Of a stretch of DNA of 64,000 nt, positions 21,438 to 61,979 are shown one piece after another; the stretch's first letter is position 1; every line of letters begins with the position of its first letter. The stretch is from positions 2,665 through 66,664 of the forward strand of contig JAFSYB010000004.1 of NCBI GenBank assembly GCA_017443765.1, read 5' to 3'. The stretch is from Muribaculaceae bacterium (GTDB taxonomy: Bacteria; Bacteroidota; Bacteroidia; Bacteroidales; Muribaculaceae). A model generated the notes under the pieces. That model was not told the DNA's origin, ran no database searches, and saw only the letters and a program-made list of their open reading frames with translations. The translations under genes and the position numbers were made by a program.

Positions 21438-21821
<384 letters not shown>

Positions 21822-24913: not shown

Positions 24914-24944
24914 GCCACGGCGAGGCGCCCCGGGCGGCAACAAA

Positions 24945-39489: not shown

Positions 39490-40053
39490 TTATCGCACGC
39501 GGCCCTGGTAGCTGCCGTCGCGGGTGTCGACCTCGATAATCTCGCCCTCGCCCACAAACAGAGGCACACGCACCGTGGCACCCGTCTCGACAGTGGCCGG
39601 CTTGAGCGAGTTGGTGGCCGTGTCGCCCTTCACACCAGGCTCGGTGTAGGTGATCTTGAGCTTCGTTTTGATGGGCATCTCGGCAAAGAGCACGGTCTCG
39701 GTGCTGGCGTCGCTCACCACCTCCACGATGTCGCCTTCCTTCATGTAGTCGGCACCGGTGATGAGCTCCTTGCTGATGGGAATCTGCTCGTAGGTTTCCT
39801 GGTTCATGAAGATGGCATCGGCACCATCCATATACAGGTACTGGTAGGGGCGGCGCTCCACACGCACGTCCTCGAGCTTCTCGCCAATGTTGAAGCGGCG
39901 CTCGAGCACGCGACCGTCAACCACGTTCTTCAGCTTCGTGCGCATGAAGGTATTGCCCTTGCCGGGCTTCACGTGCAGGAACTCGATGCAGAAGTAGAGG
40001 TCGCCGTCCATGCGGATGCAGGTGCCGTTCTTGATGTCTTGAGCGTTAATCAT
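39490..40053 (-). CDS. efp: Elongation factor P
   Basis: [26 protein letters not shown]. Confidence 0.98.
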
Positions 40054-43073: not shown

Positions 43074-45714
43074 ATGGCATTTCTCTTTAATGACTACACA
43101 ACCGCGAGTAAATTTGGAGCAATATCAAAAACCTTGCCCAAATTCATTGTTGACAACTTGCGCCCAAAATTTGTTTTAAGGCCCTATCAAGTTGAGGCTT
43201 TTGCACGTTTTGTTTATTTCTATGAGAAAGATGAGCGTGAGGACAAACAAAACCGCCCTTACCACTTACTCTTTAACATGGCCACAGGCAGCGGCAAAAC
43301 CAACATCATGGCTGGGCTGATGCTCTACTTATTTGACAAAGGATACCGTGATTTTCTGTTTTTCGTAAATAGTAACACGATTATTGAGAAAACCAAAGAC
43401 AACTTCCTCAATCCGGTATCATCAAAATATGTTTTCAATGAAATCATTACTTTTGACGCACAGGAAGTAGTGGTAAAAGAGGTGCAGTCGTTTGACGAGA
43501 GTGACCCCGATAACATCAACGTCAAGTTCACCACCATTCAACAGTTGCACCTTGACATGGAGAATCCAAAGGAAAACTCCATATCGCTTGAAGATTTCAA
43601 GAACCGCCGTATCGTGCTGCTTGCCGACGAAGCCGACAACTTCAATGTGGCGACACGAGGCCAACTGTCTACTGATGGCAATTGGGAGCAAACCATTCAA
43701 GCCATTCACAGCCAAAACATCGACAATATCCTACTGGAGTTTACGGCAACGATGGACTTGGAAACTCCCGAAATAGAGGCGAAATACAAGGACAAGGCAA
43801 TCTTCAAATACGAGCTCAAAGAATTTCGGCGTGACAGATTACTCAAAGGAGATTGAGTTACTAAGAGTCTCATCGGGCGCAAAAGGTCGCGTGCTTCACG
43901 CACTTATCTTGAACCTTTACCGTCAAGTGCTGGCGGCTCATCACCATATCAACCTCAAACCGGTTATTCTTTTCAAGGCAAAGAAAACCATTGCCGAGAG
44001 TGAACGCAATAAAGCGTTGTTCCATCAATGGATAGAGGAACTTACAGTCACAGACATTGATGCTCTGCGCATCGCAGACGATATTGATAAAGTAATCAAA
44101 CAAGCGTTTGCTTACTTTGACTCTTGCGGCATCACATCGACTGAAATCGTCAAGCGCACACAAGAAAACTTCAAGGTTGAGAACTGCATCAGCGCAAATA
44201 ATGATGCCGAGAAAGAAAAGAACCAAATGCTTCTCAACTCACTTGAAGATGAAAATAATCCCATTCGCGCCATCTTTGCTGTCAATAAACTTGACCGTGG
44301 CTGGGATGTGCTCAATCTTTTCGACATCGTGCGAATGTATGACGACCGAAACGAGGAGAACAAAGGAAAAATAGGCAAGACCACACGCGCCGAGGCTCAA
44401 CTTATCGGGCGTGGCGCACGTTACTTCCCATTTCAAGTATCGTCCGACCAGGAATTGTTCATGCGTAAATATGATAGTGACCAAGCCAATCCATTGCGTA
44501 TTCTTGAAACGCTCTATTATCACATCATTGGTGACAGTCGTTATGTGGCAGAAATTAAGAAAGCACTTGTCGAGGTGGGTATGAGTGATGAAACTTCGGT
44601 AACCAAAGTTCTACGGCTCAAAGACGAGTTTAAGAAAACTGAGTTTTTCCGCACGGCTCGTGTTGTGTTTAACAAAAAAGTTCCAAAGAGTTATAGTGGC
44701 GTGAAGTCATTAACTGACTTATCGGTAAAGAAAACCAATATGGTTTATTCCTTGTCGGAACTTCACAGCCAGTCGGTCAGTGCTTTCGATGAAGCCGATA
44801 TTAAATCAGTTGCCACCGAAAGCCGCGACATCGCTTTGGCGAATATCCCTTACCACGTTATCCGCTATGCGTTGACAACCATTCCATTCTACCGATTTGA
44901 TAACCTCACCAAATATTGCCCCAATTTGAAATCGATGCGAAACTTCATTGAGGGCAAGGAATATTTGGGCGAATATGAAATCACGTTTAAGGGCAGCAAA
45001 GATAGATTTTCCTCAATAACAAATACCGACTATCTTCATGCTGTGCAGCAACTGCTCATGGCAATTGAGAACGAAATAAAGTCGCACGTTGTTGAATCCG
45101 AAGGCTCAGATTTCTTCTACGAATACCTGCACCGCATTTTCACTGACAAGCAGATAACGTTCCCCAAAGATCCGGAACGCGAGGAAGGACAAATTGCATT
45201 CCTTGCTGACAAAGATTGGTATGCCTATAACGCCAACTACGGTACAAGCGAGGAACGTGCTTTTATTGAACTTTTCGCTCGTCGATATGAGATTTTCTCG
45301 CATAATTATGAGGATATATACATCATACGCAACGAGAAAGTCGTGAAAATTATCGACAAAGAGGGTCGCACCTTTGAACCCGACTTCCTGCTATATCTTC
45401 GCAAGAAAGAAGATGAGCACTTTGTATATCAAATATTCATCGAGCCAAAAGGTGCACACCTTAAAGGTAAAGACCAATGGAAAGAAGAATTCCTTAAAGA
45501 GCTTCAATCCAAAGGGATGACCATAGAGATTAATAGTGACAATTACCACATTACGGGTGTACCTTTCTACAATAAGGGGGACGAAAACGAGTTCAAAAAA
45601 GAATTGGAATCAATGCTTGAACTATCATATTCATCCTATGGCAAAGAGAGTATCATACAGCACACCACTTCGCACTTTGTGGAGAAAACGCAAACAATGG
45701 CGCAAGGAAACTAA
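43074..45714 (+). pseudogene. res: Type III restriction endonuclease (Res), split by +1 frameshift near 43839
   Basis: ORF1 has MATGSGKT, ADEADN, EFTAT; ORF2 has LDRGWDV, QLIGRGARY and FEPDF...IEPKG nuclease; junction GAC AGA T TAC TCA AAG rejoins as DRYSKEIELL if one T is removed. Confidence 0.85.
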
Positions 45715-48776: not shown

Positions 48777-48865
48777 CGATATACCCTAATTTTGCGGCAG
48801 TTCTTTGGTCGATATACACTAATTTTGCGGCAAAAACATCGCCGATATACCCTAATTTTGCGACA
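48777..48865 (+). repeat. Three 33-bp-period repeats with 23-bp core
   Basis: CGATATACMCTAATTTTGCGRCA at 48777, 48810, 48843. Confidence 0.95.
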
Positions 48866-50394: not shown

Positions 50395-50709
50395 TCAGTC
50401 TTTCAGCTTTATTTCAGGCTCCCTCACGCGAATCTCGGGTTGAGACAGGCGCAGCTCCTCGTCGCCGCACAGGCGGCAGACCCGGTTGCGAATCCAGTCG
50501 CCCAGCTCGGCCACATTGCGCGTGTTGGCCCCCACGTTCAGCAAGTTCAGCACCGAGCGCGAGCTCGACTCCACCGTCACCCGGCACGCCTGCGTGGCCG
50601 TGGCCACCACGCGCAGCCGCACGCGCTCGCTCAGCGGCGACAGCAGCCAGCCGCGCCGGACGCCAGCGTTGGTTGTGCATGCTGCGGCTGTGCCGCAGCC
50701 TCGATTATC
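50395..50709 (-). pseudogene. Probable 5'-truncated gene remnant
   Basis: GC-rich open frame GWLLSPLSERVRLRVV...RVTVESSSRSVLNLLNVGANTRNVAEL; upstream in-frame stop lies in the dynamin gene end, only an internal GTG. Confidence 0.4.
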
Positions 50710-52753
50710 TCATAGCCTGAATGGCAGCCACTTGTTTTTCAAGTTCCGCCTTCTTCGTGGCTAAGGTTTCCTGTTGCTTCTTAGCCTCATTGAGCTTCTG
50801 CTCCTTATTGGCCGTTTCCTGCTTGATGCTGTCAAGTTTCTCTTGGAACGGGTTAAGCAATCCCTCAATGAATTTTTCCTTCACCTCCTGGATAATCCTA
50901 TCCTTAGCCGATGTGATGCCCTCAAGACAATCACTAGCATCGAACTTAGTTTGCAGGTCGGTAATCCACTGTTTAGCACTATTCACATTATCACCATGCG
51001 AAAGAAAATTAACAGCCTTTCCCAAAACGCCCCAAGAGGCACCATTAAGAAAGTCGTATAGTACATCTCCAAATCCATAGTCTTCACTTTCATCGTCATC
51101 GGTGAAAGAGAACAGCGAGTTGTCGGTGTCAAAGTTAAAGCACTGGCTCACTCCCTTGACAAAACTGCGCTGGTCGAAGTCGTAATTGGACGGCAACCTC
51201 ATGAGAATCTCCTCCGCATCGGCGAAAAACTCATCGAGCGTACTCTTGATTTTGTGCTTCGCATTGCGGTTGATGTCTGTTGTGACACGTTTCAATGTGC
51301 GTGTAACGAGAAACTGCACTTCTCTATCCAAGTCACCTGTTAGTTTGTCGACACTGCTCCATCGTCCCCAACTGTCGACGATGCCGTTCATTTTCCGGCA
51401 GGCACTATCGACAGCGTCCTCAAGCTGCTGCTCACCATTGTTAACAATCTCTTGGAATGTATTGTCCAAGTCAATCTCAAGCCCATCTATTTTCTTGTTG
51501 ACGCGGCGCGTAACACGCGACACCTTGTTCTCCATCTCCTCAAGCTCATCGTCAGGAGCTTCGAGCATAGCGATGGTTGCATTAGTTTGATTGATTTCTT
51601 CTTCGGCTTTTGCCATCAAGCTATTTCCTTTGGCCAGGATGGAGTTGAGCGGCTTTTTGAACAGAATGGTTTCTTTCTCTCGCTCAATCACTTGACGAAC
51701 AGCCCCAATAAGGTCATCGATGTGGCTCTTGGCACGCATCTCGGCCTGTGAGGAAATCTCGAAAATGTCGCAAGCCCGATGCCAGGCATGGGCAAGATTC
51801 TCGTTGGCGTTGACTCGGCTCATTCCCAAGGTTGAGATTAGTGCCATCTCGGCCGACAGCGGAATGGGGGCGGTGTCGCGCAGAATCTCGTTGAGCTGTT
51901 CATCGCCCATCTCCCGGCTGGCCTTGGCAATCTCATTTCGCACATAGTTGCGAATCTCATCCTCCGTCTCGCCGTTCTCATAAGGGATGTCGTACTTATT
52001 TATACCGATGAGCACCTTGCCAATGCCACATTCGCCCACGTTCTTGAAAAGGATACTGCGGTCAGTGGCGTCAAATGGACGACCGGCATAGAGCATCAGC
52101 AGCACCACATCGGCTTTCTTTAGAAAGTCCTTGGTGCGCTCCTCACGCGACACAATCGGGTCGTTAAATCCCGGAGTGTCCACAATGTTCACTCCCTTGA
52201 GATATTCCTTGGGGTAATAAATGGTTACAGCCTTGGTGATGGATACGTATTTCCCATCGGCACCTACATACTGTTCCAAGTTCTCAAAGACATCAGTTGT
52301 TTTGCGACCCAGCATCGAGTTAAGCTGGCCACCCAAGCGGTCAGACTTCTCTACCAATTCTTTTGCAGCCTTGACCTTTGATTTCTTCAGTTCGTCATCG
52401 TTCTCCTCAATTGGCATTTTAGCCATCATCAGTTGCTCTTCCCATTCATTGGGGGTGTAAAACTCGGCCTCCAGCTTCTTCTCTGGGCCGTAGGTAATGA
52501 CCGACAGTGCTGCTGTCATGGGGGTGGTGGCTGCAGGAAGCACCTCGTCCTCAAACACAAACGAGTTCAGGAACGTGGACTTGCCAGCTTTCATCTGACC
52601 AATCACACCGATGGTCAGCACATCGTTTTCCAATTTGGAGATGTAGTCGGCTTGCTCATCGGCCTTAATCCAGCCGAACTCCGCAGCCTTGTTGATCAGT
52701 TCTTTTACTTTCAGCTTTTTTGCTTGAAGTTCTTCGAAAATGTTTTGTGCCAT
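50705..52753 (-). CDS. Dynamin-like GTPase (DLP-C)
   Basis: G1 GQMKAGKS, G2 TTPMT, G3 DTPG, G4 NKYD; long helical C-terminus with GASWGVLG paddle-like segment. Confidence 0.9.
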   Translation of the reverse strand: MAQNIFEELQAKKLKVKELINKAAEFGWIKADEQADYISKLENDVLTIGVIGQMKAGKSTFLNSFVFEDEVLPAATTPMTAALSVITYGPEKKLEAEFYTPNEWEEQLMMAKMPIEENDDELKKSKVKAAKELVEKSDRLGGQLNSMLGRKTTDVFENLEQYVGADGKYVSITKAVTIYYPKEYLKGVNIVDTPGFNDPIVSREERTKDFLKKADVVLLMLYAGRPFDATDRSILFKNVGECGIGKVLIGINKYDIPYENGETEDEIRNYVRNEIAKASREMGDEQLNEILRDTAPIPLSAEMALISTLGMSRVNANENLAHAWHRACDIFEISSQAEMRAKSHIDDLIGAVRQVIEREKETILFKKPLNSILAKGNSLMAKAEEEINQTNATIAMLEAPDDELEEMENKVSRVTRRVNKKIDGLEIDLDNTFQEIVNNGEQQLEDAVDSACRKMNGIVDSWGRWSSVDKLTGDLDREVQFLVTRTLKRVTTDINRNAKHKIKSTLDEFFADAEEILMRLPSNYDFDQRSFVKGVSQCFNFDTDNSLFSFTDDDESEDYGFGDVLYDFLNGASWGVLGKAVNFLSHGDNVNSAKQWITDLQTKFDASDCLEGITSAKDRIIQEVKEKFIEGLLNPFQEKLDSIKQETANKEQKLNEAKKQQETLATKKAELEKQVAAIQAMR

Positions 52754-52767
52754 GTTTATTGTAATTC

Positions 52768-54612
52768 TTATTTGATTCTACTCACAAGCTTGTTGAAATC
52801 AGCCCGCAGTTCATCAATCTCCCTAGTGGTAACTTGCACTCGAATATAGCCCTCGTAAAGGCTTTGAACTTCTTGCTGAATACCCATCTGTTCATCATAT
52901 AAATTACACAGCGCATCCATGCGCGTCCCGTAAATTGAATTCAGCAATTCTTTAAGTCGGTTGAAATCATACTCGCTCATCTCATAGCAGTTACGACTTA
53001 ACCAATGAGTTTCCCATTGCGGAATACCCTCAGCCGCTTCGCATTCAGAGCGTGTGGCATTGATGTGGCTGAGATATCTTTCCACACTGTCATTTCCTGC
53101 TTTGACTTTCGCATCATATTCATTTTTTGCGTTCTGCACTTCTTCTTCAAAATGATTGTATGCCCCATCGATGGCTTCGCGTACTTCATTTAAATAGTCG
53201 CTATCAGTAGTGGTGCTGTTTACTTGCTGAATTGGCCGCATGATGTCGGCCAGCGGTGCTTTCGACGAGAAACGGATAAACGCTACGACAGGCACGCCCT
53301 CACGTGCAAAAGTATCACGGATGAGTTTTTCCACTTTGTCAACCTCCGACTTTGACTTAGTGTCCACTTTGTTGATAACAACATAAACGGGCTTTTTCAG
53401 GTTGTTTTTGATAAGATTGATAGATGTCTTGTTCACAGTGCCAGCATTGACATCAAACACCCAAAACAATGCATCGCACTCGTTGATGACTTCGATGGTG
53501 CGCTCACTGTCTTCTTTGTCGCTTGAACTGAATCCTGGGGTGTCGAGAATACTCAAATTGTTCAAATTGTCGTTTTTATAGCTCATCACAAAGTACTTGA
53601 TGAGACTTGACACGCCGTTCACTTGGTCGAGGACTTCTTTGGTCACACGCCTAAAGTCACTCTCACTGATACTTTTTAATTTGTTGTCAGGCGTGTAGAA
53701 CTGGTATATCGTCTTAACCCCACCAGTGATGTAGGTCGGAACCGCTGTGGTGGCCTTGGTGCTTACGGGCAACAAGGGCACATTGGGGTCGTCCTGCGAG
53801 AGGATACGGTTGACAATCGATGTTTTTCCGGCCGAGAACTCACCCACAAAAGCGATAGATATTTTCCCAGAAATCCAATTCTTTTTGGCAACAGCCTCCC
53901 ATCGTTTTCGACTATCATTGAAGAACGCTTTTAAATAGTCATTGAAATTATAAAGTTCTTTAAACTTATCTTGCAACCTACCCTCGATAAAATCGCTTAG
54001 CGATTCAATGGCACGGTAGCGTGCCGATGTATTGCTGTCGCTGTACTCCTGTGCCGAGAGGATACTCTGAACGAAATTGAGCGACTCCATCTTCAAACTC
54101 AATTCATTCATCGTCTGCTGGAGCTCGGCTTTCATCCGCTCCAACTCTTGAGCTTTCTGCTGATGGTCCTTTACCAACAGTTCTTTTTCCCTTTCCAGCT
54201 CGCTGAACTCCGCGTTTCTTTTCTTCAGCTTCTTTTCCTTTTCCTCAAGGTCATCCTCAAATTCCTCAATTTGGTCTTCAAGGTCTTTGATTTTCTTTTT
54301 CAATTTCTCGGTGTCGGCCAGTTGAGTTACCACTTTAGAATCCACCTTTCCGTCTTTCACCGCTTGTTTTAGTTGCGCATCAAGGGATTCTGCTTTATCA
54401 GTAGCTTCTTTAAGCAATTTCTCGATTTTGGTTTTTTGCTCTTTCAGTTTCTCGTAATCGGCAAGACGCTCCATTATTTCAGCATCCTGATTTTGAGAAC
54501 TGCTCCGCAACTGGTCAGCAATGCTTGGAGACTTTACCTTGATTACAATATAGGTGATTGCTGCACCCACGATGGCAGCCACCACAATCAGAATAACGCT
54601 TAACACATTCAT
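52768..54612 (-). CDS. Dynamin-like GTPase with N-terminal TM helix and coiled coil (DLP-B)
   Basis: N-terminal VLSVILIVVAAIVGAAITYIVI; ~200-aa coiled coil; G1 GEFSAGKT, G3 DTPG, G4 NKVD. Confidence 0.88.
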   Translation of the reverse strand: MNVLSVILIVVAAIVGAAITYIVIKVKSPSIADQLRSSSQNQDAEIMERLADYEKLKEQKTKIEKLLKEATDKAESLDAQLKQAVKDGKVDSKVVTQLADTEKLKKKIKDLEDQIEEFEDDLEEKEKKLKKRNAEFSELEREKELLVKDHQQKAQELERMKAELQQTMNELSLKMESLNFVQSILSAQEYSDSNTSARYRAIESLSDFIEGRLQDKFKELYNFNDYLKAFFNDSRKRWEAVAKKNWISGKISIAFVGEFSAGKTSIVNRILSQDDPNVPLLPVSTKATTAVPTYITGGVKTIYQFYTPDNKLKSISESDFRRVTKEVLDQVNGVSSLIKYFVMSYKNDNLNNLSILDTPGFSSSDKEDSERTIEVINECDALFWVFDVNAGTVNKTSINLIKNNLKKPVYVVINKVDTKSKSEVDKVEKLIRDTFAREGVPVVAFIRFSSKAPLADIMRPIQQVNSTTTDSDYLNEVREAIDGAYNHFEEEVQNAKNEYDAKVKAGNDSVERYLSHINATRSECEAAEGIPQWETHWLSRNCYEMSEYDFNRLKELLNSIYGTRMDALCNLYDEQMGIQQEVQSLYEGYIRVQVTTREIDELRADFNKLVSRIK

Positions 54613-54618
54613 ATCGTC

Positions 54619-55005
54619 TTACTTGTTTTTGAGTTGCGCAATTTCAATCTCATAACTCTCGCAGGCTGTCTTGTACTCCTGCAGCTTGCGCAGCAAGTCG
54701 TCGTTCTGCCGAGTGAGTTTCTTGATGGTTGCCTTTGCATCTTCAAGGTCTTCCTCAAGGTTATCGGCATCATCATCCTTGTCCTTGAACCGTGTCTGGA
54801 GTTTCTGCAACTCGCGCGTCAAGTCCTCAACGCGCCGCTCTGCTTCCTTGTTGCGGTTGCGAAGTTTCTCGTTCTCGGCATACAGCTCATTGAGTTGTTG
54901 CGAGTTGTTCTGCTTGTCAGAGTCATTTTTGGTCAGGGCATCTTTAGCCACGATGGCACCAGCTCCTACGGCTGCGCCAATAATAAATCCTACCATATTA
55001 TCCAT
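54619..55005 (-). CDS. Small membrane-anchored coiled-coil protein
   Basis: MVGFIIGAAVGAGAIVA then charged heptads; 5-6 nt gaps to both neighbours. Confidence 0.85.
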   Translation of the reverse strand: MDNMVGFIIGAAVGAGAIVAKDALTKNDSDKQNNSQQLNELYAENEKLRNRNKEAERRVEDLTRELQKLQTRFKDKDDDADNLEEDLEDAKATIKKLTRQNDDLLRKLQEYKTACESYEIEIAQLKNK

Positions 55006-55010
55006 ATTTG

Positions 55011-56885
55011 TTACTGTGTTAGCAATTCATTCTTGTAATCACGAATCTCGCTCATGCGTTTGTTGAACGCATCTTTTTCATTCTCAAATTGCTGGACCAG
55101 ACCCTCCAAGGCCAGCTTTTTCTCTGCAACGGTCACCTCTGCTGCGCTTTGCAGCAGACTTCTCACCGCAGCCACCACTTGGCCGCAGTTACGGGTCATG
55201 GCTTGGCGGAATTCTGGCATAAGCGACTCATCAATATAGTTGTGGATGGCACGACGGCGCTGGGGCTTTCCCCACGTCTTGTCAGTTACAAAGCCCACCA
55301 TGCCTTCGATGAAGCCTTTCTTCTGTCCGGTCTGTTGACCGATAGCTTGATTGATATTGTTTACGTTCTGATACTGATTACCTGCTTCTTGAGCCAGCAC
55401 CATAGCCTTCTCCACACGGCTCGCTGTGCGGGCATTAGAAATCATGCTACCAATGTCGGAGACTGTATCAATTACACCTGCTGCACCCACTGCCATCTCT
55501 CCAGTAGTCAGTGCAGCTGCCCCTCCTGCGGCAGCCTCGCCCACTGCGGCAGCTTCGCCCGCAGCGGCAGCTCCCGCCGCAGGTGCTGCTGCACCTGCCG
55601 TGGCCACAACAGCTGCTACAGCAGCCACAGTCCCTACGACCTTCACCCCGGTAGCGATGACGCCATCATGCTCGTGGCCGATGGAATTCAAGTCCAGATT
55701 GAACGACAAACCGCTCACGTTGAGTTGCGACAGGTCAACACTCTGAATGCTCTGCAAGTCCAAATCTGTGTTGCTCCGCTGTTGGCTTTGTTCCATGAGT
55801 ATGCGGCTCACATTGGTCTTGAACTCATTGAGGTTGATGCTGGCAAGATTGTTGATGGCTGCAACCGCCTCGGCATTGTAATTGTCACTTTTCGATGAAA
55901 CAATGTAGTCGAGGCGCGTGAATACCGTGTCCTCAAATTGTCGGCAGATGCGCGTCTGCTCCTCCTCGATTGAGTTCTGAGCATTGTTCACCATGCGATT
56001 AATGGTATTTGAAATCTTGCGCAACTCAAGTTCTTTAGCTTGGATGGCATCTTTTAATTCCTTATCGGAGTGCGATGCTGCTAACATCTCATCGATGTGC
56101 CGAATCATCGCGCTTGTGATGTTCTTAACACGCTGCTGGTTCACCTGTTCAAGAATTACCCGTTTCTCCAGTTGGACCGAGGCAAGCAACGAAACGAACT
56201 CCTGCGTTTCACCTTTAGTAGAAGATACGCTCACCACTTGCTTCAATGGAAGTTTACATTCTTGGGCAAGCCTTTGCTTGGTTTCCTCTATTGCCTGGGC
56301 TGTCTTGGTGTCGCAATGAGTAATCACAAGGAACACTGGCCGCTTGGCCAGTTCCATAGTTGCGATGAAATCGGTAAGCGTGCGCGTGAGCTGAGCGTTA
56401 ATGTCCATCACAAGAAGGATGGCATCAGCCTTGGGAAGGAAATCAATGAGAACTTGGCGGTGCTCGGCGATTTTAGATGAAAGTCCCGGAGTGTCAACCA
56501 AGATGATACTTGAAGACACGCGGTTCGATGTGTCGCACACGTTCACAACCAACGAGTCTTTCAGTTCCTCATTCCTTAGTTCGTCAAATCGTTCAGTCGT
56601 TTTCTTGCTACCATTATTATATATGACTTCGGCCTCGCATTTATCGCAGCCAAAGTGAATCTCAAATAATGTAGCCGTGGTTTCTTTTCTCGCTGTTTCC
56701 AACTTATAAGTTGAATCAAGCAGCGCATTGATGAGTGTCGTTTTGCCAGAGCTGAACTCACCCACCAAAGGCATGATTAGTTCGCATTCTTGTTCGTCAG
56801 AACGCTGTTTGATGAGCTTGAGCTGCTCCGCCTCATTAATCAATCCCAAATCTTGAGAGATTTCAATTAGTCGTTCTATGTTCAT
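55011..56885 (-). CDS. Dynamin-like GTPase (DLP-A) with Ala/Gly-rich hydrophobic insert
   Basis: G1 GEFSSGKT, G3 DTPG, G4 variant THCD; TAATTTTG box at 56933-56940. Confidence 0.88.
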   Translation of the reverse strand: MNIERLIEISQDLGLINEAEQLKLIKQRSDEQECELIMPLVGEFSSGKTTLINALLDSTYKLETARKETTATLFEIHFGCDKCEAEVIYNNGSKKTTERFDELRNEELKDSLVVNVCDTSNRVSSSIILVDTPGLSSKIAEHRQVLIDFLPKADAILLVMDINAQLTRTLTDFIATMELAKRPVFLVITHCDTKTAQAIEETKQRLAQECKLPLKQVVSVSSTKGETQEFVSLLASVQLEKRVILEQVNQQRVKNITSAMIRHIDEMLAASHSDKELKDAIQAKELELRKISNTINRMVNNAQNSIEEEQTRICRQFEDTVFTRLDYIVSSKSDNYNAEAVAAINNLASINLNEFKTNVSRILMEQSQQRSNTDLDLQSIQSVDLSQLNVSGLSFNLDLNSIGHEHDGVIATGVKVVGTVAAVAAVVATAGAAAPAAGAAAAGEAAAVGEAAAGGAAALTTGEMAVGAAGVIDTVSDIGSMISNARTASRVEKAMVLAQEAGNQYQNVNNINQAIGQQTGQKKGFIEGMVGFVTDKTWGKPQRRRAIHNYIDESLMPEFRQAMTRNCGQVVAAVRSLLQSAAEVTVAEKKLALEGLVQQFENEKDAFNKRMSEIRDYKNELLTQ

Positions 56886-57115
56886 AATTGTTAATGACTA
56901 TTTATTGGTGATTGTTTTTTCTTCTGTAAATGCAAAATTAGACAAAACTCCAAATTCGTGGAAACGAGAAAACAAAGGAATTATGAATCAAATGGCAAAT
57001 AGTGCGACTTTGCGTAAATAATTACTGAAAGATGGAAAAATACGGGACACAAAAAATGGATTTATCCCTATTTATGTGGCAGCGTTTCTATCACATCGAT
57101 TGAGAACTTGGCATT

Positions 57116-57361
57116 TCAGTTGGTACTGAAACTCTTTCCGCAGCTGTGGCAATGGTACTCTGCGTTTTCCGACGGGTTGTCGTGTCGTGGCTGCTGTCCG
57201 TCGACGTGCAGCATGAAAAATTTGCATAGGACTACTGACATCAAGCCGCTTATTCCTGCCGCGCCAAAGTGCCTGCCACTATTAGCATGCCCTTCTGCAA
57301 CGGCCTTGTAGTGGTTGACGTTCAGACTGCCACAATACGGACAACGCACGCTCTCAATCAT
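57116..57361 (-). CDS. Small split zinc-ribbon protein
   Basis: CPYCGS...CHSCGKSF flanking a Gly-rich hydrophobic stretch. Confidence 0.7.
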   Translation of the reverse strand: MIESVRCPYCGSLNVNHYKAVAEGHANSGRHFGAAGISGLMSVVLCKFFMLHVDGQQPRHDNPSENAEYHCHSCGKSFSTN

Positions 57362-57386: not shown

Positions 57387-57695
57387 TCAATGAACGACGT
57401 GATGAACTATGACTACCTCGCTGACTGTAGAGTTGAGATCTGAACCCGACATGGAGCCGTTTGCACTGCGACCTGCGGCTATACGCAGCACCTTGGGACA
57501 GACATGACCCGAAGCGAGTGTGACGGCATACTGCGCCGCAGTCATGACCACGGCACCGCCACTCGTGCCAATGAATGGCACGACCTTCAAGGCACTGGCC
57601 ACGCCCGAAGCAGCAATGTGGCCCGCCCGATTGGTTGCCGCCCCCGAGCCTGTGGCCTTGATGATATTATCACCAACAATATATCCTTCATTCAT
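57387..57695 (-). CDS. Small Gly/Ala-rich hydrophobic protein (possibly frameshifted near 3' end)
   Basis: ASGVASALKVVPFIGTSGGAVV; shifted frame would end FIDQAKKAY* at 57365, 3 nt before the next ATG. Confidence 0.55.
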   Translation of the reverse strand: MNEGYIVGDNIIKATGSGAATNRAGHIAASGVASALKVVPFIGTSGGAVVMTAAQYAVTLASGHVCPKVLRIAAGRSANGSMSGSDLNSTVSEVVIVHHVVH

Positions 57696-57706: not shown

Positions 57707-57925
57707 TTAGTTTAGACGTTCAACGGCGAGATAGCTCATGTTCAGCGCGCCGACACGGCGAAGGTCTACACCATATATGCGCATGAACGCGCTTGCCACT
57801 GCTTGCGGATTGGAGAGCACGGGATTGCTCATCGATTGTGTGACTACCTCAACGCTCATGCCGGGCTCAATGCGTTCGCCGTTGGCGTTTTTCATCTGTC
57901 GTGTAGTAATGATAAATCTTGCCAT
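57707..57925 (-). CDS. Small conserved Bacteroidetes protein, resembles DUF6140
   Basis: NG.RIEPGMSV, AFMRIYGVD pattern recalled for that family; TAACTTTG box at 57993-58000. Confidence 0.7.
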   Translation of the reverse strand: MARFIITTRQMKNANGERIEPGMSVEVVTQSMSNPVLSNPQAVASAFMRIYGVDLRRVGALNMSYLAVERLN

Positions 57926-58184
57926 TGTTTATAAGTGTTTTAGGTATGTATCCTATTGGTTGTTGCATAGAAGTCTGGCTCGATGCCCATTGCAAAGTTA
58001 CAACCATATCTTGCGCCTTCTCAATGAGACAAATCATTATTTTCTATGAAGAAAGCACATTTGCGGTGTTTGCGTATAATTCTACGGAAAGTCAATATTT
58101 TCAATGACAAGATATCGATGGCAGGAGCGGAATGTTGCGAATGACGTGCAAAGTGAGTAACTTTGCAGTGTACAATTACTATTC

Positions 58185-59586
58185 TTGACGATGATGAACG
58201 AGGAGACCGAGATGAGACAACTCAAGGATGACTTGCGTCTGATTGAGCGCACGCGTCTGTTACGCAATACCAACGCCGAACTTGGCGCATTAGTGGACTA
58301 CCCCCTCGACAAAGGCAACAGCCTCACACGCAAGGGTGGCAACTCGCTTGTGATGAAACGCGCCGTACTCTCGTTGCTGGCCGAAATCGCCCACAAAGAA
58401 TCGGGCCTGAACCTGAACGACGTGTTGGCACACTACCGCACAGTCGATGCTTTGTTGACTAATCAACGTGTAAGGGTTCGGGGCATCGAAGCGGCTTGCG
58501 CTGTGGCACGCCATTATTTTTTCGACACTCCGTTGCCGCCCAAACTCTCGTCACTCGCGAGGCACATCACACCAGGCGAGCTGCCAGTGCTCATGCTCAT
58601 GCTGCTTGAAGTGCTGCCGCAACCAAGCGAGAACAGTGGCGATGTGAAAGACTTCGCCACGCTGTACGAGCGCGTCGTCCACACGCTAACCCATGTGCTC
58701 AACAACACTGACGAGTGCACTAATGGCCGCACCGTCGCCCTAAAGACTATCCCAGCGCTATCGCGCATTGACGATGATTACCGTCGGGGCGAGATTAACA
58801 GTCGGTTGTCGCTCATCGCCATCACCAATCTTGCCCTCCAGGCATTCTATCATGTTCTCATGCCACATCTGTCGCTGGAGGAAAACTTACAGATGTGTCG
58901 CGAAATGGTTTTTCCCGATGGTATCGGCGACCTCTATGGGAATGAGAAGCGCGACACTCAATTCTGGCGCGTCGAGCGTGTCGAGAATGCCTATTTCCTA
59001 TATCACTACCATCCGCGACGCGAACAGCGGCAATTGCATTACACCCGTTTCATGTTCAAGTTGTTCAGCGAACCTGGCGGCAAGTTGATGGCGTTGGTGA
59101 CACATCCGTTGTCAATGGTTGATATTATTGCCGGACGACCCGTGGACGAGCGACACTATGCCTTCCTTGACTGCGTGCTTCTGCCCGACGGTGTACTGTC
59201 GTTTGTGCCTCGGGTCAGGGCATTCTCTTGGTTCACTCGCATAGCGAGCAAACTTATTCCCTTGAAAGGTGAGAACCCCTATCGGCAAATGTTTAAAAAG
59301 TATGAGCTTATTGATGCCTTTGCCGAAGCAGCCTACGATTTCGAGATTACTCTGCAAAGCATCACGTGCGACGCGATAGTTCTGGGTGATGGCGATGGCG
59401 GCACCTACACAGTGCCCAAGCGGTTAAAACCCACCTTTGATGCCGTTGATTTCAACCAATCGATTGGCGTTCTGAAGATGGCCGGGACGCACCTACCTTG
59501 CCTTTGATGAACACCGCGTTTACATCGACGTCACCGACGAGGAAAAAATGCGCGCACTCGGCATCTCGCACTCCCCCGCTTCTTGA
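58185..59586 (+). CDS. Hypothetical protein, putative regulator; probable +1 frameshift near 59485
   Basis: ORF 58185-59507; the +1 frame continues RTYLAFDEHRVYIDVTDEEKMRALGISHSPAS* to 59586; divergent from small-gene cassette. Confidence 0.65.
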
Positions 59587-59825
59587 CTTCTCCCAAATTC
59601 TTGCCATGGCGAGGGTGTCGAAACGGCAGTAGTCGAGCCGTGCTTTACGGGCTTCGCTGCGCTTGCCCTGCGGACTCCCGCGCACCCGCGAGCGCGTGTC
59701 CAGTTTTTTTCACTGAGGTATCAGTACTTTGCGTTTTTATTCGTATATTTGCAGTCGAAACGGAATGGCCACTCGCCACTGCGGTCATTTCGAGCAACTA
59801 CGAAACATCTCATCAAATCCGCTTT

Positions 59826-61979
59826 ATGAACCGACTTACCTTGCTCTTGTGCGCAGCCCTGCTGGCTGTTGCCGCTGTGGCACGCGATGCTGCGCGTGCC
59901 GAGGAACGCTTTATCAACTCGCTGCTCTCGCGCATGACCCTGGAAGAAAAAATCACCCTGCTGCACGGCAACTCCACCTTCTATGTGGGTGGTGTGCCTC
60001 GGCTGGGCATCCCGGAATGGGCCATGAGCGACGGGCCGCACGGCGTGCGCGCCGAGTTTGACCGCCACAGCTGGCTATACGCCGGGTGGACAACCGACTC
60101 GGCCACCTACCTGCCCACAGGCACGGCGATTGCCGCGACGTGGAACGTGGACTTGTGCCGCTCGCGTGGCGAGACGCTGGGCGAGGAGGCGCGCTGGCGC
60201 GGCAAGGACGTGCTGCTGGGGCCTGGCGTGAACATCATTCGCAGCCCGCTGTGCGGCCGCAACTTCGAGTACCTGAGCGAAGACCCCTACCTGGCCGGCC
60301 AACTGGCAGCGGCCTACATCCGCGGGTTGCAGTCGCGCAACGTGGCGGCCTGCGTGAAACACTTCGCGGCCAACAACCAGGAGCGGTGGCGGCTGGAGAA
60401 CAGTTCGCAGGTCTCGGCCCGCGCCCTGCACGAGATTTACCTGCCGGCGTTCAAGGCAGCCGTGCAGCAAGGCGGCAGCCTGTGCGTGATGAGCGGCTAC
60501 AACCAGGTGAACGGCACCTTCTGCGCCGAGAATGCGCCGCTGGTGCTCGACATCCTCAAGGGCGAGTGGGGCTTCGAGGGGGTGTACATGAGCGACTGGG
60601 GCGCGGCACAATCGACAGTGGCCTCGGCGATGAACGGCCTGGACGTGGAGATGGGCACCTGGGCGGGGCACTACGACGAGTGGTTCTTCTCGCGCGCCCT
60701 GCTCCAGGCGGTACGCAATGGCGAGGTGCCGATGAGCGTGGTCGATGAAAAAGTGCGGCGCGTGCTGCGTGTGATGTACCGCACGCGCATGATTGGCAAG
60801 CAGCGGCGCTACGGCCCGGGCAGCATCAACACGGCGGCCCACCAGCAGGAAGCCTACCGCGAGGCCGCCGAGGCCATCGTCCTGCTCCAGAACCGTGGCG
60901 GCCTCCTGCCACTCAATTTGTCGGGGTTGCGCTCGGTGGCGGTGATTGGCGACAATGCCACCCGCGAGCACAGCTTTGGCGGCATGAGCAGCGAAATCAA
61001 GACCCCCTACGAGGTGACACCGCTGCAAGGGCTGCGCGACCGTTTGGCGGGCACGGGTGTCGACCTGCGGTTTGCGCAGGGTTACACCGCAGTGCCCCGC
61101 GACAGCGTGGTGCCGCAGGCGGTGCGCGACAGCCTGGCGGCGCAGGCTGTGGCACTGGCCCAGGCCAGCGATGTGGCCATTGTGTGCTGCGGACTGAACC
61201 ACTACTACGACGCCGAGAATGTGGACCGCGACGACATCCAGCTGCCCTATGGTCAGGCAGCGCTTATCCGTGCCGTGTGCCGCGCCAACCCACGCACCAT
61301 CGTGGTGGTGGTGGCCGGGTCGCCCGTCGACCTGGTGTCGCCGTCGCTGTGCGCGCCGGCCATCGTGTGGAGCTGGCTCGGCGGCATGGAGGTGGGGCAC
61401 GCCCTGGCCGATGTGCTGCTGGGCAAGGTGAACCCGTCGGGCAAGCTGCCGTTCACCATCGGCTACACGCTCGACCAGTACGGCCCGCACGCGCTGGGCT
61501 GCTTCCCGGGTAACCAGCATGAGGTGACCTACGACGAGGGCATCTACGTGGGCTACCGCTGGTTCGAGGCGCGGGGGTTGCCCGTGCTGTACCCCTTTGG
61601 CCACGGATTGAGCTACACCCATTTCGACTACGGCAGCCCGACACTTTCGGCCCGCCGCATGACACCGGGCGACACGCTGTTGGTAACGGTGCCCATCACC
61701 AACAGCGGCCCTGTGGCGGGCAAGGAGGTGGTGCAGCTCTATGTGGAAGATGTGGCTTGCCGCGTCGACCGGCCACGCAAGGAGCTCAAGGGCTTCGCCA
61801 AGGTGGAAGTGCAACCGGGGCAGACGGCCCAGGCCGTGTTCCGGCTCACCACCGACGACCTGGCTTACTACGACGAGCAGCAGATGGGCTGGGTGGCCGA
61901 GCCGGGCGAGTTCCGCCTGCACATTGCGGCCTCCAGCTCCGACGTGCGGCAAACGGCCACGTTCACCCTCGACTTTTAG
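59826..61979 (+). CDS. GH3 beta-glucosidase family protein with Fn3-like C-terminus
   Basis: Signal peptide from ATG 59826; SDGPHGVR, GRNFEYLSEDP, KHFAAN, MSDW, YEEG-type DEGIYVGYR, PFGHGLSYT. Confidence 0.95.
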   Translation: MNRLTLLLCAALLAVAAVARDAARAEERFINSLLSRMTLEEKITLLHGNSTFYVGGVPRLGIPEWAMSDGPHGVRAEFDRHSWLYAGWTTDSATYLPTGTAIAATWNVDLCRSRGETLGEEARWRGKDVLLGPGVNIIRSPLCGRNFEYLSEDPYLAGQLAAAYIRGLQSRNVAACVKHFAANNQERWRLENSSQVSARALHEIYLPAFKAAVQQGGSLCVMSGYNQVNGTFCAENAPLVLDILKGEWGFEGVYMSDWGAAQSTVASAMNGLDVEMGTWAGHYDEWFFSRALLQAVRNGEVPMSVVDEKVRRVLRVMYRTRMIGKQRRYGPGSINTAAHQQEAYREAAEAIVLLQNRGGLLPLNLSGLRSVAVIGDNATREHSFGGMSSEIKTPYEVTPLQGLRDRLAGTGVDLRFAQGYTAVPRDSVVPQAVRDSLAAQAVALAQASDVAIVCCGLNHYYDAENVDRDDIQLPYGQAALIRAVCRANPRTIVVVVAGSPVDLVSPSLCAPAIVWSWLGGMEVGHALADVLLGKVNPSGKLPFTIGYTLDQYGPHALGCFPGNQHEVTYDEGIYVGYRWFEARGLPVLYPFGHGLSYTHFDYGSPTLSARRMTPGDTLLVTVPITNSGPVAGKEVVQLYVEDVACRVDRPRKELKGFAKVEVQPGQTAQAVFRLTTDDLAYYDEQQMGWVAEPGEFRLHIAASSSDVRQTATFTLDF

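What the first reader, a model, noticed from the sequence alone, without database searches (positions are those of the whole stretch)
50705..56885. Four-gene operon with three different dynamin-like GTPases plus a membrane-anchored coiled-coil protein, inside a defence hotspot
Seen: four genes separated by only 5-14 nt behind a single TAATTTTG promoter box (56933-56940). The order is DLP-A (624 aa), a 128-aa TM+coiled-coil protein, DLP-B (614 aa, TM-anchored) and DLP-C (682 aa). Each DLP has its own G1/G3/G4 motifs, and they are clearly divergent from one another. Known: bacterial DLPs usually work as pairs or fused pairs (B. subtilis DynA, C. jejuni Cj0411/0412, mycobacterial IniA/IniC). E. 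coli LeoABC-type dynamins form the Eleos anti-phage system, and DynA limits phage spread. Inference: this is a three-GTPase hetero-oligomeric membrane remodelling or anti-phage system with a dedicated membrane adaptor, which I do not recognise as described in Bacteroidales. Its neighbours (Type III R-M, ATPase-nucleases) favour defence.
Basis: partly seen in the sequence, partly recalled or inferred. Interest (0 to 1): 0.8.

Follow-up and report, generated by a model that had tools for sequence, protein, structure and literature searches.

The report
Mobile three-dynamin membrane operon
Four tightly packed genes encode three different, complete dynamin-like GTPases plus a small membrane-anchored coiled-coil protein; the same cassette recurs, horizontally scattered, in gut and oral Bacteroidales and some spirochaetes, its three GTPase types also occur together on plasmids of other phyla, I found no description of it, and it most likely builds a membrane-guarding (probably anti-phage) machine.

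Summary
Four minus-strand ORFs (A 624 aa, s 128 aa, B 614 aa, C 682 aa) are separated by 5, 6 and 14 nt behind a TAATTTTG box. A, B and C each pass Pfam Dynamin_N and keep G1/G3/G4. s and B have N-terminal TM helices, and A has an internal hydrophobic Gly/Ala-rich segment.

The cassette is not Eleos/LeoABC. Its PADLOC Leo scores are matched by the housekeeping GTPase Der. LeoABC is two DLPs, one of them split. The closest structures are BDLP, Cj-DLP1/2, IniA and mitofusins.

The order A-s-B-C is kept in 73 of 74 related loci with enough flank. The three proteins co-evolve (rho 0.83-0.89), and the gene tree conflicts with taxonomy. The cassette is rare (2 of 400 order genomes, 3 of 25 in the genus) and absent from the phage collections searched.

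New here:
- s is a free-standing homologue of B's TM/coiled-coil N-terminus.
- DUF6140 precedes the cassette in 30 of 63 loci.
- An LHH nuclease follows it directly in two relatives.
- Flanking genes hit about ten times more PADLOC models than random genes (162 vs 15).
- The same A, B and C types form A-C-B operons on proteobacterial and Deferribacterota plasmids.

The function is untested. A defensive or protective membrane role is my best guess (about 50%). Verdict: new variant of a known kind.

The parts
56933..56940 (-). Bacteroidota-type -7 promoter box TAATTTTG, 48 nt upstream of the DLP-A start
   Evidence: Read. Listed, where TANNTTTG gives 45 matches against 21.6 expected in the window. 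Function as a promoter is inferred, not shown.
55011..56885 (-). DLP-A (624 aa): N-terminal GTPase, helical neck/trunk bundle, and an internal Gly/Ala-rich hydrophobic segment (about 407-480) flanked by the conserved motifs GHE(H/Y)D and KPQRRR
   Evidence: Dynamin_N 67.4 bits. AF2 pLDDT 76.5, with 413-529 unmodelled. Foldseek top hits are IniA, BDLP and Cj-DLP1/2 with full-length alignments, E 6e-15 to 6e-11. Profile match to IniA 41.6 bits. KD segment 407-442. Invariant residues.
54619..55005 (-). s (128 aa): N-terminal Gly-rich TM helix plus a coiled coil with an acidic DDxxDLEDxL...KK motif; homologue of the N-terminal module of DLP-B
   Evidence: KD segment 1-25. Found in 62 loci by BLAST and in 9 of the 11 'ABC' loci by ORF inspection. 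hhalign of s against B columns 1-178: probability 98.7%, E 1.6e-16. Coiled-coil composition may inflate that score.
52768..54612 (-). DLP-B (614 aa): TM helix 3-26, coiled coil 31-185, helices 193-242, GTPase 251-462, C-terminal helical hairpin 469-613
   Evidence: Dynamin_N 64.9 bits. AF2 pLDDT 84.9. Foldseek top hits BDLP, Cj-DLP2 and mitofusins at E about 4e-13; LeoA only at rank 32. Its G domain is closest to that of A (hhalign E 4.5e-29).
50705..52753 (-). DLP-C (682 aa): BDLP1/Cj-DLP1-like DLP with no TM-grade hydrophobic segment and an insertion in the G domain; the most conserved of the three
   Evidence: Dynamin_N 86.7 bits. Profile match to BDLP 84.1 bits and to Cj-DLP1 76.8 bits over positions 31-628. 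KD maximum 1.16. More than 3000 90%-identity clusters of relatives.
50681..50700 (-). GC-rich hairpin (GCTGCGGC-ACA-GCCGCAGC) 4 nt after the DLP-C stop; possible terminator, but with no T-run
   Evidence: Read directly from the sequence. Function is inferred.
57707..57925 (-). DUF6140 gene (72 aa), a frequent same-strand leader of the cassette. Here it has its own -7 box (57993-58000) and is separated from A by two small ORFs.
   Evidence: PF19637 91.8 bits. Same strand within 1.5 kb upstream in 30 of 63 loci, directly adjacent in 23, never on the opposite strand. Only 2 copies in this genome and none in the 14 control genomes.

Best explanation
This is one copy of a conserved, horizontally mobile cassette (A-s-B-C) that encodes a heteromeric machine of the BDLP/mitofusin class on the cytoplasmic membrane.

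Shown:
- Three complete DLPs have intact, strongly conserved GTPase motifs.
- The gene order is fixed, and the three proteins are inherited as a unit.
- B is predicted to be tethered by an N-terminal TM helix and a coiled coil of about 155 residues.
- s is a free-standing homologue of that anchor and stalk.
- A carries an internal hydrophobic Gly/Ala-rich membrane segment.
- C has no TM-grade hydrophobic segment and is BDLP1/Cj-DLP1-like.

Inferred:
- s pairs with B's stalk in the membrane.
- The closely related G domains of A and B dimerise on GTP.
- C is recruited to them, as Cj-DLP1 is by Cj-DLP2.
- GTP-driven assembly then tethers, seals or remodels the inner membrane where it is perturbed.

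The cassette is rare and patchy, and its flanks are enriched in defence genes. A nuclease directly follows it in two related genomes, and a WYL regulator precedes one plasmid triad. From this I take its most likely role to be protective immunity acting at the membrane. It may limit phage entry or phage-induced lysis, as DynA does, or trigger abortive infection. I do not think it does housekeeping membrane dynamics. It is a distinct architecture, not a member of Eleos.
For: Anatomy.

Conserved unit: A, B and C occur in this order in 73 of 74 loci with enough flank. s was found in 71 of those 73. The pairwise distances of A, B and C correlate at rho 0.83-0.89, and 0 of 500 permutations reach that.

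s is homologous to B's N-terminus: hhalign probability 98.7%, E 1.6e-16.

Mobility and accessory status:
- 3 of 25 genomes in the genus. The copies in G004 and G007 are only 33-44% identical to the window's over the aligned stretches, and G007's lies in a distant clade.
- 2 of 400 sampled genomes in the order.
- The gene tree is incongruent with taxonomy.
- The GC content of the island is atypical for the genome.
- This genome has no other true Dynamin_N protein.

Defence context:
- Type III R-M, PDC-S27 and PDC-S01 lie beside it.
- 135 flanking proteins from about 50 loci hit 162 PADLOC families at E<=1e-10. 135 length-matched random proteins of this genome hit 15.
- Neighbours include PDC-S01/S05/S23/S02, AriA/PtuA-like ATPases, mad3, WYL, Cas3, Fic and AAA_15/21.
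- An LHH nuclease lies 19 nt after C in G004 and G007.
- On a P. aeruginosa megaplasmid the A-C-B triad follows a WYL gene. It lies beside an EH-signature protein and a DEAD-box helicase, which are ZorC/ZorD-like by annotation.

Not phage-borne: no match in INPHARED or IMG/VR, and only weak, non-specific PHROG matches.

Precedent: DynA and the two-gene dynamin system protect against phage.
Against: There is no functional data of any kind, and no RNA data exist for this stretch.

The flanks of related loci are heterogeneous and include plain housekeeping genes: GldN, M16 peptidases, TonB receptors and ABC transporters. Only a minority of neighbours are defence-like.

The 162-versus-15 comparison counts redundant models rather than proteins. 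It also compares many genomes with one.

LeoABC, the nearest named system, was first tied to vesicle release rather than defence.

The Photobacterium triad sits between traU and traN, and the E. coli triads are all on plasmids. Both fit a role that serves the mobile element.

The assembly model (s with B, A with B, recruitment of C) rests on monomer predictions and analogy. A 413-529 is not modelled.
Confidence: 0.5

Rival explanations
1. It is a physiological membrane-remodelling or repair module that is not immune. The three DLPs would maintain inner-membrane integrity under envelope stress (bile, antimicrobial peptides, antibiotics) or promote vesicle formation. This is what is proposed for IniA/IniC, for DynA under antibiotic stress, and for LeoABC in vesicle release.
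For: The closest structures are the membrane fission and fusion DLPs IniA, BDLP, Cj-DLP1/2 and mitofusins. LeoAB deletions halve vesicle-associated cargo. Many flanking genes in related loci are ordinary envelope or metabolic genes. This genome has no other DLP, so the cassette is its only dynamin machinery.
Against: A general physiological function would not be expected in only about 0.5% of the order's species and 3 of 25 congeners. It would also not be expected to be acquired twice independently within the genus. Flanks are about ten times richer in defence-model hits than random genes. A nuclease or a WYL regulator is attached in some versions.
Confidence: 0.25
2. The function benefits the mobile element that carries the cassette. 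The triad would remodel or protect the membrane during conjugative transfer, or exclude competing plasmids or phages from the element's host. The Bacteroidales copies would be cargo of unrecognised integrative elements.
For: The Photobacterium triad lies between traU and traN. All five E. coli copies are on plasmids and are at least 99.8% identical. The P. aeruginosa and Calditerrivibrio copies are on plasmids beside IS elements and an integrase. The Bacteroidales cassette moves horizontally.
Against: No tra, integrase or transposase family is among the 25 commonest Pfam families in the flanks of the sampled Bacteroidales and spirochaete loci. The window's island lies between efp and a GH3 gene and its annotated genes are defence genes. 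The plasmids carrying the E. coli, P. aeruginosa and Photobacterium triads that I looked at are typed non-mobilizable. Defence cargo is itself common on plasmids, so a plasmid location does not separate this reading from the main one.
Confidence: 0.1
3. It is simply a divergent Eleos (LeoA/LeoBC) system that current models under-detect, so it is already a known kind of defence system.
For: All three proteins give PADLOC LeoA/LeoBC hits. C aligns over most of both models: LeoBC positions 69-578 of 601 at 68.4 bits, and LeoA 94-555 of 559 at 64.9 bits. Millman et al. report their two-gene dynamin system in Bacteroidetes as well.
Against: The housekeeping GTPase Der of this genome scores 1.5e-18 and 7.7e-16 on the same two models. 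That equals C and is far better than A or B, which reach 36-42 bits and cover 9-30% of the models. Profiles of A, B and C do not find LeoA (4AUR) in the PDB at E<=0.01 but do find BDLP, Cj-DLP1/2 and IniA. By fold, LeoA is absent from the top 50 hits for A and ranks 32nd for B. Eleos has two DLPs, one sometimes split inside its G domain. Here there are three complete DLPs plus s.
Confidence: 0.08

Closest known systems
Eleos (formerly 'Dynamins'; LeoBC + LeoA) and LeoABC of ETEC H10407
   Same: It is an operon of co-operating bacterial DLPs found in defence islands, with one partner anchored in the membrane. In Eleos the GTPase P-loops of both proteins are needed for defence against jumbo phages.
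   Different: Eleos has two DLPs. In ETEC one of them is split inside the G domain into LeoC (206 aa) and LeoB (572 aa). Here there are three complete DLPs, each with its own G1-G4 motifs, plus a coiled-coil anchor protein. Sequence similarity to the Leo models is no better than that of Der. LeoA is not among the close structural matches.
Campylobacter jejuni DLP1/DLP2 heterotypic pair (PDB 5OWV/5OXF) and Nostoc BDLP1 (2J68)
   Same: These are the best sequence-profile and fold matches. C matches BDLP at 84 bits and Cj-DLP1 over nearly its full length. B matches Cj-DLP2. A matches both by fold. They give the idea of one DLP recruiting and tethering another.
   Different: Those systems are pairs. 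They have no third DLP, no N-terminal TM/coiled-coil stalk, no s protein and no Gly/Ala-rich membrane segment. Identity is only 12-17% in the structural alignments.
Mycobacterial IniA/IniC (iniBAC operon)
   Same: IniA is the best match for DLP-A by profile (41.6 bits) and by fold (E 6e-15). It is a stress-linked operon of more than one DLP. From my own memory, IniB is a Gly/Ala-rich protein, which recalls A's Gly/Ala-rich segment and the 102-aa Gly/Ala-rich ORF upstream. That is a lead, not a test.
   Different: It has two DLPs, not three. It is core in mycobacteria and induced by cell-wall drugs, and it is not a mobile island gene set. No homology beyond the DLP fold was shown here.
Bacillus subtilis DynA (fused double DLP)
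   Same: It is a multi-G-domain DLP machine that acts at the membrane and limits phage spread by delaying lysis.
   Different: DynA is a single two-headed housekeeping protein. The NCBIfam DynA equivalog scores are 48-56 bits against a cut-off of 1600.
A-C-B three-dynamin operons on plasmids (E. coli IncF pZ1323PEC0011-3, P. aeruginosa megaplasmid ppae01, Calditerrivibrio pCALNI01, Photobacterium pPGC22); annotated only as 'dynamin family protein'
   Same: They have the same three DLP types. The A-type scores 71-89 bits and has the hydrophobic segment at about 430-446. The B-type scores 80-126 bits. The C-type scores 155-210 bits over its full length.
   Different: The gene order is A-C-B, or A-B-x-x-C in Photobacterium. 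B lacks the TM/coiled-coil N-terminus in the two operons where match positions were examined (E. coli, Photobacterium), there is no credible s homologue, and there is no DUF6140. They sit on plasmids rather than chromosomal islands.

Membership tests
Dynamin superfamily, bacterial BDLP/mitofusin class | Large GTPase domain matching Dynamin_N with G1 (GxxxxGKS/T), G3 (DxxG) and G4 ((N/T)KxD) | tested here: met
   Dynamin_N scores are 67.4, 64.9 and 86.7 bits against a cut-off of 27. G1 and G3 are invariant and G4 is invariant or nearly so in 58-62 orthologues.
Dynamin superfamily, bacterial BDLP/mitofusin class | Helical neck/trunk bundles flanking the G domain, with fold similarity to solved DLPs | tested here: met
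   The AF2 models of A (pLDDT 76.5) and B (84.9) match IniA, BDLP, Cj-DLP1/2 and mitofusins at E 1e-15 to 1e-11. C was not modelled, but its profile aligns to Cj-DLP1 over positions 31-628.
Dynamin superfamily, bacterial BDLP/mitofusin class | Membrane-binding element (paddle or TM) | tested here: inconclusive
   A has a hydrophobic segment at 407-442 and B has a TM at 1-29. C has no segment above the KD threshold. A BDLP-type amphipathic paddle in C was not tested.
Eleos / LeoABC | Specific full-length matches to the LeoA and LeoBC models | tested here: not met
   A and B score 36-42 bits and cover 9-30% of the models. C scores 65-68 bits. Der/EngA of the same genome reaches 1.5e-18 and 7.7e-16 on the same models. 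LeoA (4AUR) is not found by any of the three profiles.
Eleos / LeoABC | Two-DLP architecture (LeoBC + LeoA, with LeoBC optionally split inside its G domain) | tested here: not met
   There are three complete DLPs plus s.
Eleos / LeoABC | System call by PADLOC or DefenseFinder with their own thresholds and gene rules | not testable with these tools
   Only the HMM library was available, not the system-calling rules.
Eleos / LeoABC | GTPase-dependent protection against phage | not testable with these tools
   This needs an experiment.
DynA (NF052648), CrfC (NF007368), LeoA/HP0731 (NF041922) NCBIfam families | Score above the curated cut-off | tested here: not met
   DynA 48-56 bits against 1600; CrfC 30.3 against 1146; LeoA/HP0731 16.9 against 325.
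Three-type (A/B/C) dynamin triad (provisional family defined here) | One A-type (internal hydrophobic segment), one B-type and one C-type DLP encoded together and inherited as a unit | tested here: met
   73 of 74 loci with enough flank. Distance correlation rho 0.83-0.89. The same three types occur on plasmids of other phyla.

The most novel reading that the evidence does not exclude
Operons that combine one A-type, one B-type and one C-type dynamin-like GTPase form a distinct, cross-phylum and horizontally mobile class of membrane-acting immune systems. This class would be mechanistically separate from two-gene Eleos. The Bacteroidales/spirochaete branch would have added a duplicated TM/coiled-coil stalk (s, and the N-terminus of B), an optional DUF6140 leader, and occasionally an LHH nuclease effector. 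The machine would sense phage-inflicted lesions or entry sites in the inner membrane. It would then either seal them or convert them into an abortive response.
Probability: 0.35. Interest if true: 0.8.

Novelty: new variant of a known kind. Interest (0 to 1): 0.6.

Why it matters
Bacterial dynamins are known as pairs or fused pairs, and how they work remains largely unresolved. Only one DLP-based defence system (Eleos) has been named. A fixed three-DLP module with a built-in membrane stalk is a new architecture. It is conserved across Bacteroidota, Spirochaetota, Pseudomonadota and Deferribacterota.

The module offers a natural system for asking how heterotypic DLPs divide labour between an anchored, a membrane-inserted and a soluble partner. 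If it is defensive, it would add a membrane-level immune mechanism to gut and oral Bacteroidales. That matters for phage ecology and for phage therapy of the microbiome. Carriers include cultured, tractable strains: Parabacteroides distasonis, Prevotella jejuni, Segatella hominis, Tannerella forsythia, and E. coli plasmids.

The finding that Der matches the PADLOC Leo models as well as these DLPs do is also a practical warning for automated Eleos calls.

Tried and rejected
- **Eleos membership:** rejected.
- **DynA, CrfC and LeoA/HP0731 equivalogs:** far below cut-off.
- **Phage or prophage origin:** no tblastn hit in 50,697 phage records, no relative in IMG/VR, and only weak, non-specific PHROG matches.
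- **Plasmid orthologues of the Bacteroidales cassette:** none. The plasmid search found only the more distant A/B/C triads.
- **Transcription evidence:** only DNA metagenome runs hold this stretch, so operon structure and induction could not be tested.
- **Per-locus defence scoring:** not possible, because the family scan returns only tallies. I used a tally with a random-gene control instead. A first control set was discarded because it contained antisense ORF artefacts of the high-GC genome. It was replaced by GC3>GC1-filtered ORFs from 20 random regions.
- **First PADLOC tally:** failed on the residue limit and was redone with 135 sequences.
- **Careful ML tree:** did not finish in the time allowed. 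A quick IQ-TREE with SH-aLRT support was used, so deep branches are unsure.
- **Literature:** searches for DUF6140, three-dynamin operons and dynamins in Bacteroidales defence found no description.

Full report
**1. Observation**

- A: 55011-56885 (624 aa)
- s: 54619-55005 (128 aa)
- B: 52768-54612 (614 aa)
- C: 50705-52753 (682 aa)

The gaps between them are 5, 6 and 14 nt. A, B and C each pass the Pfam Dynamin_N gathering score (67.4, 64.9 and 86.7 bits against 27). Each has its own G1, G3 and G4 motifs. In alignments of 58-62 orthologues G1 and G3 are invariant and G4 is at least nearly invariant. The paralogues resemble each other only in the G domain, at 22-28% identity.

Hydropathy gives TM-grade segments at s 1-25 and B 1-29. 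C has none.

The TAATTTTG box is at 56933-56940, 48 nt before the start of A. The TANNTTTG motif is twice as frequent in the window as in shuffles (45 against 21.6), as expected for a Bacteroidota genome. A GC-rich hairpin follows the stop codon of C.

**2. Setting in the window**

The cassette lies in a block of lower GC content, 42-53% at about 40-58 kb against 58-67% outside it. The block sits between efp (39490-40053) and a GH3 glycosidase (59583-61979). The block also holds:
- a Type III methylase;
- a Type III restriction gene in two overlapping ORFs;
- a PDC-S27 gene (658 bits);
- a PDC-S01 gene (526 bits).

Upstream on the same strand are a DUF6140 gene (57707-57925) and two small ORFs. 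A 440-aa gene of unknown family is transcribed divergently. Apart from this operon, the genome has no true Dynamin_N protein.

**3. A conserved, mobile unit**

DLP-C has more than 3000 90%-identity clusters of relatives. The few that carry a name are 'dynamin family protein' of Bacteroidales. A scan of one genome per species returned 80 loci:
- Most are Bacteroidales. Cultured carriers include Tannerella forsythia, Parabacteroides distasonis, Prevotella jejuni, Segatella hominis, Bacteroides heparinolyticus and Lepagella muris.
- Others are Treponema and other Spirochaetales, Weeksellaceae and Flavobacterium.
- A few bins are labelled as other phyla.

A, B and C occur in this order in 73 of 74 loci with enough upstream sequence. 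One locus, L029, has C alone. s was found by BLAST in 62 loci. Nine of the eleven loci where BLAST missed it have an ORF between A and B with the same build: a Gly-rich TM helix and a coiled coil with an acidic DDLEDEL...KKK motif.

The pairwise distances of A, B and C are tightly correlated (Spearman 0.83-0.89; no permutation of 500 reaches that). The set therefore travels together.

The cassette is rare. It is in 3 of 25 genomes of the window's genus and in 2 of 400 other sampled genomes of the order.

A quick maximum-likelihood tree of C conflicts with taxonomy. P. jejuni pairs with T. forsythia. The window's copy groups with Prevotellaceae-like bins at 72% identity. The copy in the same-genus genome G007 lies in a distant clade with Weeksellaceae and Flavobacterium and is only about 44% identical over the aligned stretch. 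This implies two separate acquisitions in one genus.

G domains are strongly conserved (0.7-0.94 majority-residue frequency per column), while stalks and C-terminal regions are variable (0.3-0.5).

**4. What the proteins look like**

*DLP-A.* The model (pLDDT 76.5) has an N-terminal G domain and long helical bundles. Residues 413-529, which include the Gly/Ala-rich hydrophobic stretch, are not modelled. Its best fold matches are IniA, BDLP and Cj-DLP1/2 with full-length alignments, followed by mitofusins.

*DLP-B.* The model (pLDDT 84.9) has a TM helix (3-26), a coiled coil of about 155 residues (31-185), helices 193-242, the G domain (251-462) and a helical hairpin (469-613). It matches BDLP, Cj-DLP2 and mitofusins. 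LeoA appears only at rank 32.

*DLP-C.* I did not model it. Its profile finds BDLP (84 bits) and aligns to Cj-DLP1 over nearly its whole length.

*Relations among them.* The G domains of A and B are each other's closest relatives (hhalign E 4.5e-29). Both relate to C more distantly.

*s.* s aligns end to end with the first ~178 profile columns of B, TM helix on TM helix and acidic motif on acidic motif (probability 98.7%, E 1.6e-16). It is best read as a free-standing copy of B's anchor and stalk. Coiled-coil composition may inflate that score.

**5. Not Eleos**

The PADLOC LeoA and LeoBC models give 36-42 bits for A and B over 9-30% of the model, and 65-68 bits for C. In my random-gene control, the housekeeping ribosome GTPase Der of the same genome scored 1.5e-18 and 7.7e-16 on these two models. 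That is as good as C. Such scores therefore show only GTPase-level similarity.

None of the three profiles finds LeoA in the PDB, although they do find BDLP, Cj-DLP1/2 and IniA.

The architectures also differ. Eleos is a two-gene system. In ETEC LeoABC, LeoC (206 aa) and LeoB (572 aa) are the two halves of one DLP split inside its G domain, next to LeoA. The NCBIfam models for DynA, CrfC and LeoA/HP0731 are far below their cut-offs.

**6. A wider triad**

The only plasmid matches to C were distant, but they proved informative. Several plasmids carry three consecutive 'dynamin family protein' genes:
- E. coli IncF plasmids;
- a P. aeruginosa megaplasmid;
- a Calditerrivibrio plasmid;
- a Photobacterium plasmid.

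Profiles built from the Bacteroidales orthologues assign these genes one to one:
- The A-type scores 71-89 bits and has a hydrophobic segment at about 430-446.
- The C-type scores 155-210 bits over its full length.
- The B-type scores 80-126 bits. In the E. coli and Photobacterium operons, where match positions were printed, it lacks the TM/coiled-coil N-terminus.

The order is A-C-B, or A-B-x-x-C in Photobacterium. None has a credible s homologue.

Their contexts differ:
- In P. aeruginosa the triad follows a WYL-domain gene. It lies beside an 'EH signature' protein and a DEAD-box helicase. From my own knowledge, those are the annotations of Zorya ZorC and ZorD.
- In Photobacterium it sits between traU and traN.
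- In Calditerrivibrio it is next to IS200/IS605.
- In E. coli it is present in 5 of 5,426 complete genomes, always on plasmids and at least 99.8% identical. One copy is interrupted by an IS3.

Ruegeria plasmids carry a more divergent four-DLP set followed by a kinase, an FHA protein and a PP2C phosphatase.

The three-type triad is therefore older and wider than the Bacteroidales cassette. The Bacteroidales version adds the anchor module.

**7. Accessory partners**

A DUF6140 gene lies on the same strand within 1.5 kb upstream in 30 of 63 loci. It is directly adjacent in 23 and never on the opposite strand. This genome has only two DUF6140 genes, and 14 control genomes have none.

In G004 and G007 a 171-aa LHH nuclease of the HNH/EndoVII superfamily follows C after 19 nt. 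L034 and L042 have one about 2.6 kb downstream.

A protein of about 470 aa with no Pfam, PADLOC or PHROG match recurs near the cassette in 17 loci, always on the opposite strand. Its homologue in the window is 58185-59507. It is absent from all 40 sampled relatives.

**8. Is it defence?**

*Evidence for:*
- the window's own neighbours;
- its rarity, patchiness and horizontal spread;
- occasional decay: DLP-A is interrupted in T. forsythia ATCC 43037, C is split in Lepagella muris, and an IS3 sits in one E. coli copy;
- the attached nuclease or WYL regulator in some versions;
- a controlled tally, described next.

For the tally I took the two nearest large genes on each side of the cassette in about 50 loci, 135 proteins in all. 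They hit 162 PADLOC families at E<=1e-10. A set of 135 length-matched random proteins from this genome hit 15.

*Evidence against, or neutral:*
- The tally counts redundant models and compares many genomes with one.
- Most individual neighbours are not defence genes, and many are ordinary envelope or metabolic genes.
- LeoABC was first linked to vesicle release.
- A plasmid location, and the position within a tra region, would also fit a role that serves the mobile element.
- The cassette was not found in the phage collections searched.
- No RNA data exist for it.

**9. Most likely mechanism**

*Shown:* three catalytically intact DLPs of different build are inherited together. One has an N-terminal TM helix and a long stalk. 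One has an internal hydrophobic segment. One has no TM-grade segment and is BDLP1-like. A stalk-only paralogue of B accompanies them.

*Inferred:*
- s pairs with B's stalk in the inner membrane.
- The G domains face the cytoplasm, because that is where GTP is. The positive residues after B's TM helix agree with this.
- The G domains of A and B dimerise on GTP.
- C is recruited, as Cj-DLP1 is by Cj-DLP2.
- The assembly tethers, seals or remodels the membrane where it is perturbed.

I rate a protective, probably anti-phage, role at about 50%. Non-immune membrane repair or vesicle formation is about 25%. A function that serves the mobile element is about 10%. A merely divergent Eleos is under 10%.

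**10. Relation to earlier notes of this scan**

Two earlier follow-ups on other genomes (e1-3207920 and e1-2321614) described the same cassette and reached similar verdicts. I treated them as leads and re-derived the gene-order conservation, the closest structures and the plasmid relatives independently.

- the homology of s to B's N-terminus;
- the DUF6140 linkage figures;
- the LHH nuclease;
- the Der control for the Leo models;
- the controlled PADLOC tally;
- the evidence for two acquisitions within the genus;
- the one-to-one typing of the plasmid triads.

**11. Verdict**

The cassette is a new variant of a known kind, namely bacterial dynamin-like protein operons. Interest is about 0.6. 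The architecture is new, widespread and experimentally tractable, but its function is still a reasoned guess.

Noticed in passing
window 43074-43856 and 43831-45714 (+): The Type III restriction (Res) gene is in two overlapping ORFs of 260 and 627 aa. They match consecutive parts of one PADLOC REase_III model (24-264 and 264-858 of 873). This looks like a frameshift, so the enzyme may be inactive or phase-variable. No obvious homopolymer is present at the junction.
   Followed up: partly
window 58185-59507 (+): A 440-aa protein with no Pfam, PADLOC or PHROG match is transcribed divergently from the DUF6140 gene. Homologues of about 470 aa lie near the dynamin cassette in 17 loci of diverse species, upstream or downstream but always on the opposite strand. 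It is absent from all 40 sampled relatives of this genome.
   Followed up: partly
window 48787-48860 (+): Three TAATTTTG boxes occur at exact 33-nt spacing (48787, 48820, 48853) just upstream of the PDC-S01 gene start (48878). This suggests a tandem repeat that carries promoter boxes.
   Followed up: no
L111:11418-12731 (own genome, contig C11): The housekeeping GTPase Der/EngA hits the PADLOC LeoBC and LeoA models at E 1.5e-18 and 7.7e-16. Raw hits to these models are therefore not specific for Eleos.
   Followed up: yes
L008:10938-11453 (G007) and L007:9053-9568 (G004): A 171-aa LHH nuclease (PF14411, 65.8 bits) lies 19 nt after DLP-C in the two same-genus genomes that carry a divergent copy of the cassette. 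The window's copy has no such gene.
   Followed up: partly
L036:4766-7698 (Tannerella forsythia ATCC 43037); L088:3350-5424 (Lepagella muris): DLP-A of T. forsythia ATCC 43037 is in two pieces (402 and 208 aa) separated by about 1.1 kb, while strain OH1426 has it intact. DLP-C of Lepagella muris is split into two ORFs. Both are signs of decay in some carriers.
   Followed up: no
L120 (Photobacterium ganghwense plasmid pPGC22, record 22391-29164): A three-dynamin set (A-B-x-x-C) lies between traU and traN of a conjugation gene cluster.
   Followed up: partly
L121 (P. aeruginosa plasmid ppae01, record 14055-23209): An A-C-B dynamin triad lies directly after a WYL-domain gene. It is next to an 'EH signature domain' protein and a DEAD/DEAH helicase (Zorya ZorC/ZorD-like annotations), with an IS30 and an integrase downstream.
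   Followed up: partly
L122 (Ruegeria sp. B32 plasmid, record 360761-374234): Four dynamin-family genes with three small ORFs are followed by a Ser/Thr kinase, an FHA protein and a PP2C phosphatase. This is a more divergent multi-DLP operon with its own phospho-signalling set.
   Followed up: no
window 57387-57695 and 57116-57361 (-): Two small ORFs sit between DUF6140 and DLP-A. One is a 102-aa Gly/Ala-rich hydrophobic protein. The other is an 81-aa protein with CxxC pairs around a hydrophobic core (weak match to a PHROG zinc-finger family, E 2e-4). Neither clustered with flanking genes of the other loci.
   Followed up: partly
L098:9037-9258 (own genome, contig C90): The second DUF6140 copy in this genome (33 bits) lies next to an LRR/FGE-sulfatase-domain protein, not next to dynamins.
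   Followed up: partly
L029 (Prevotella sp. SUG3187): This is the only locus with 10 kb of upstream flank in which a full-length DLP-C stands without A, s or B.
   Followed up: no
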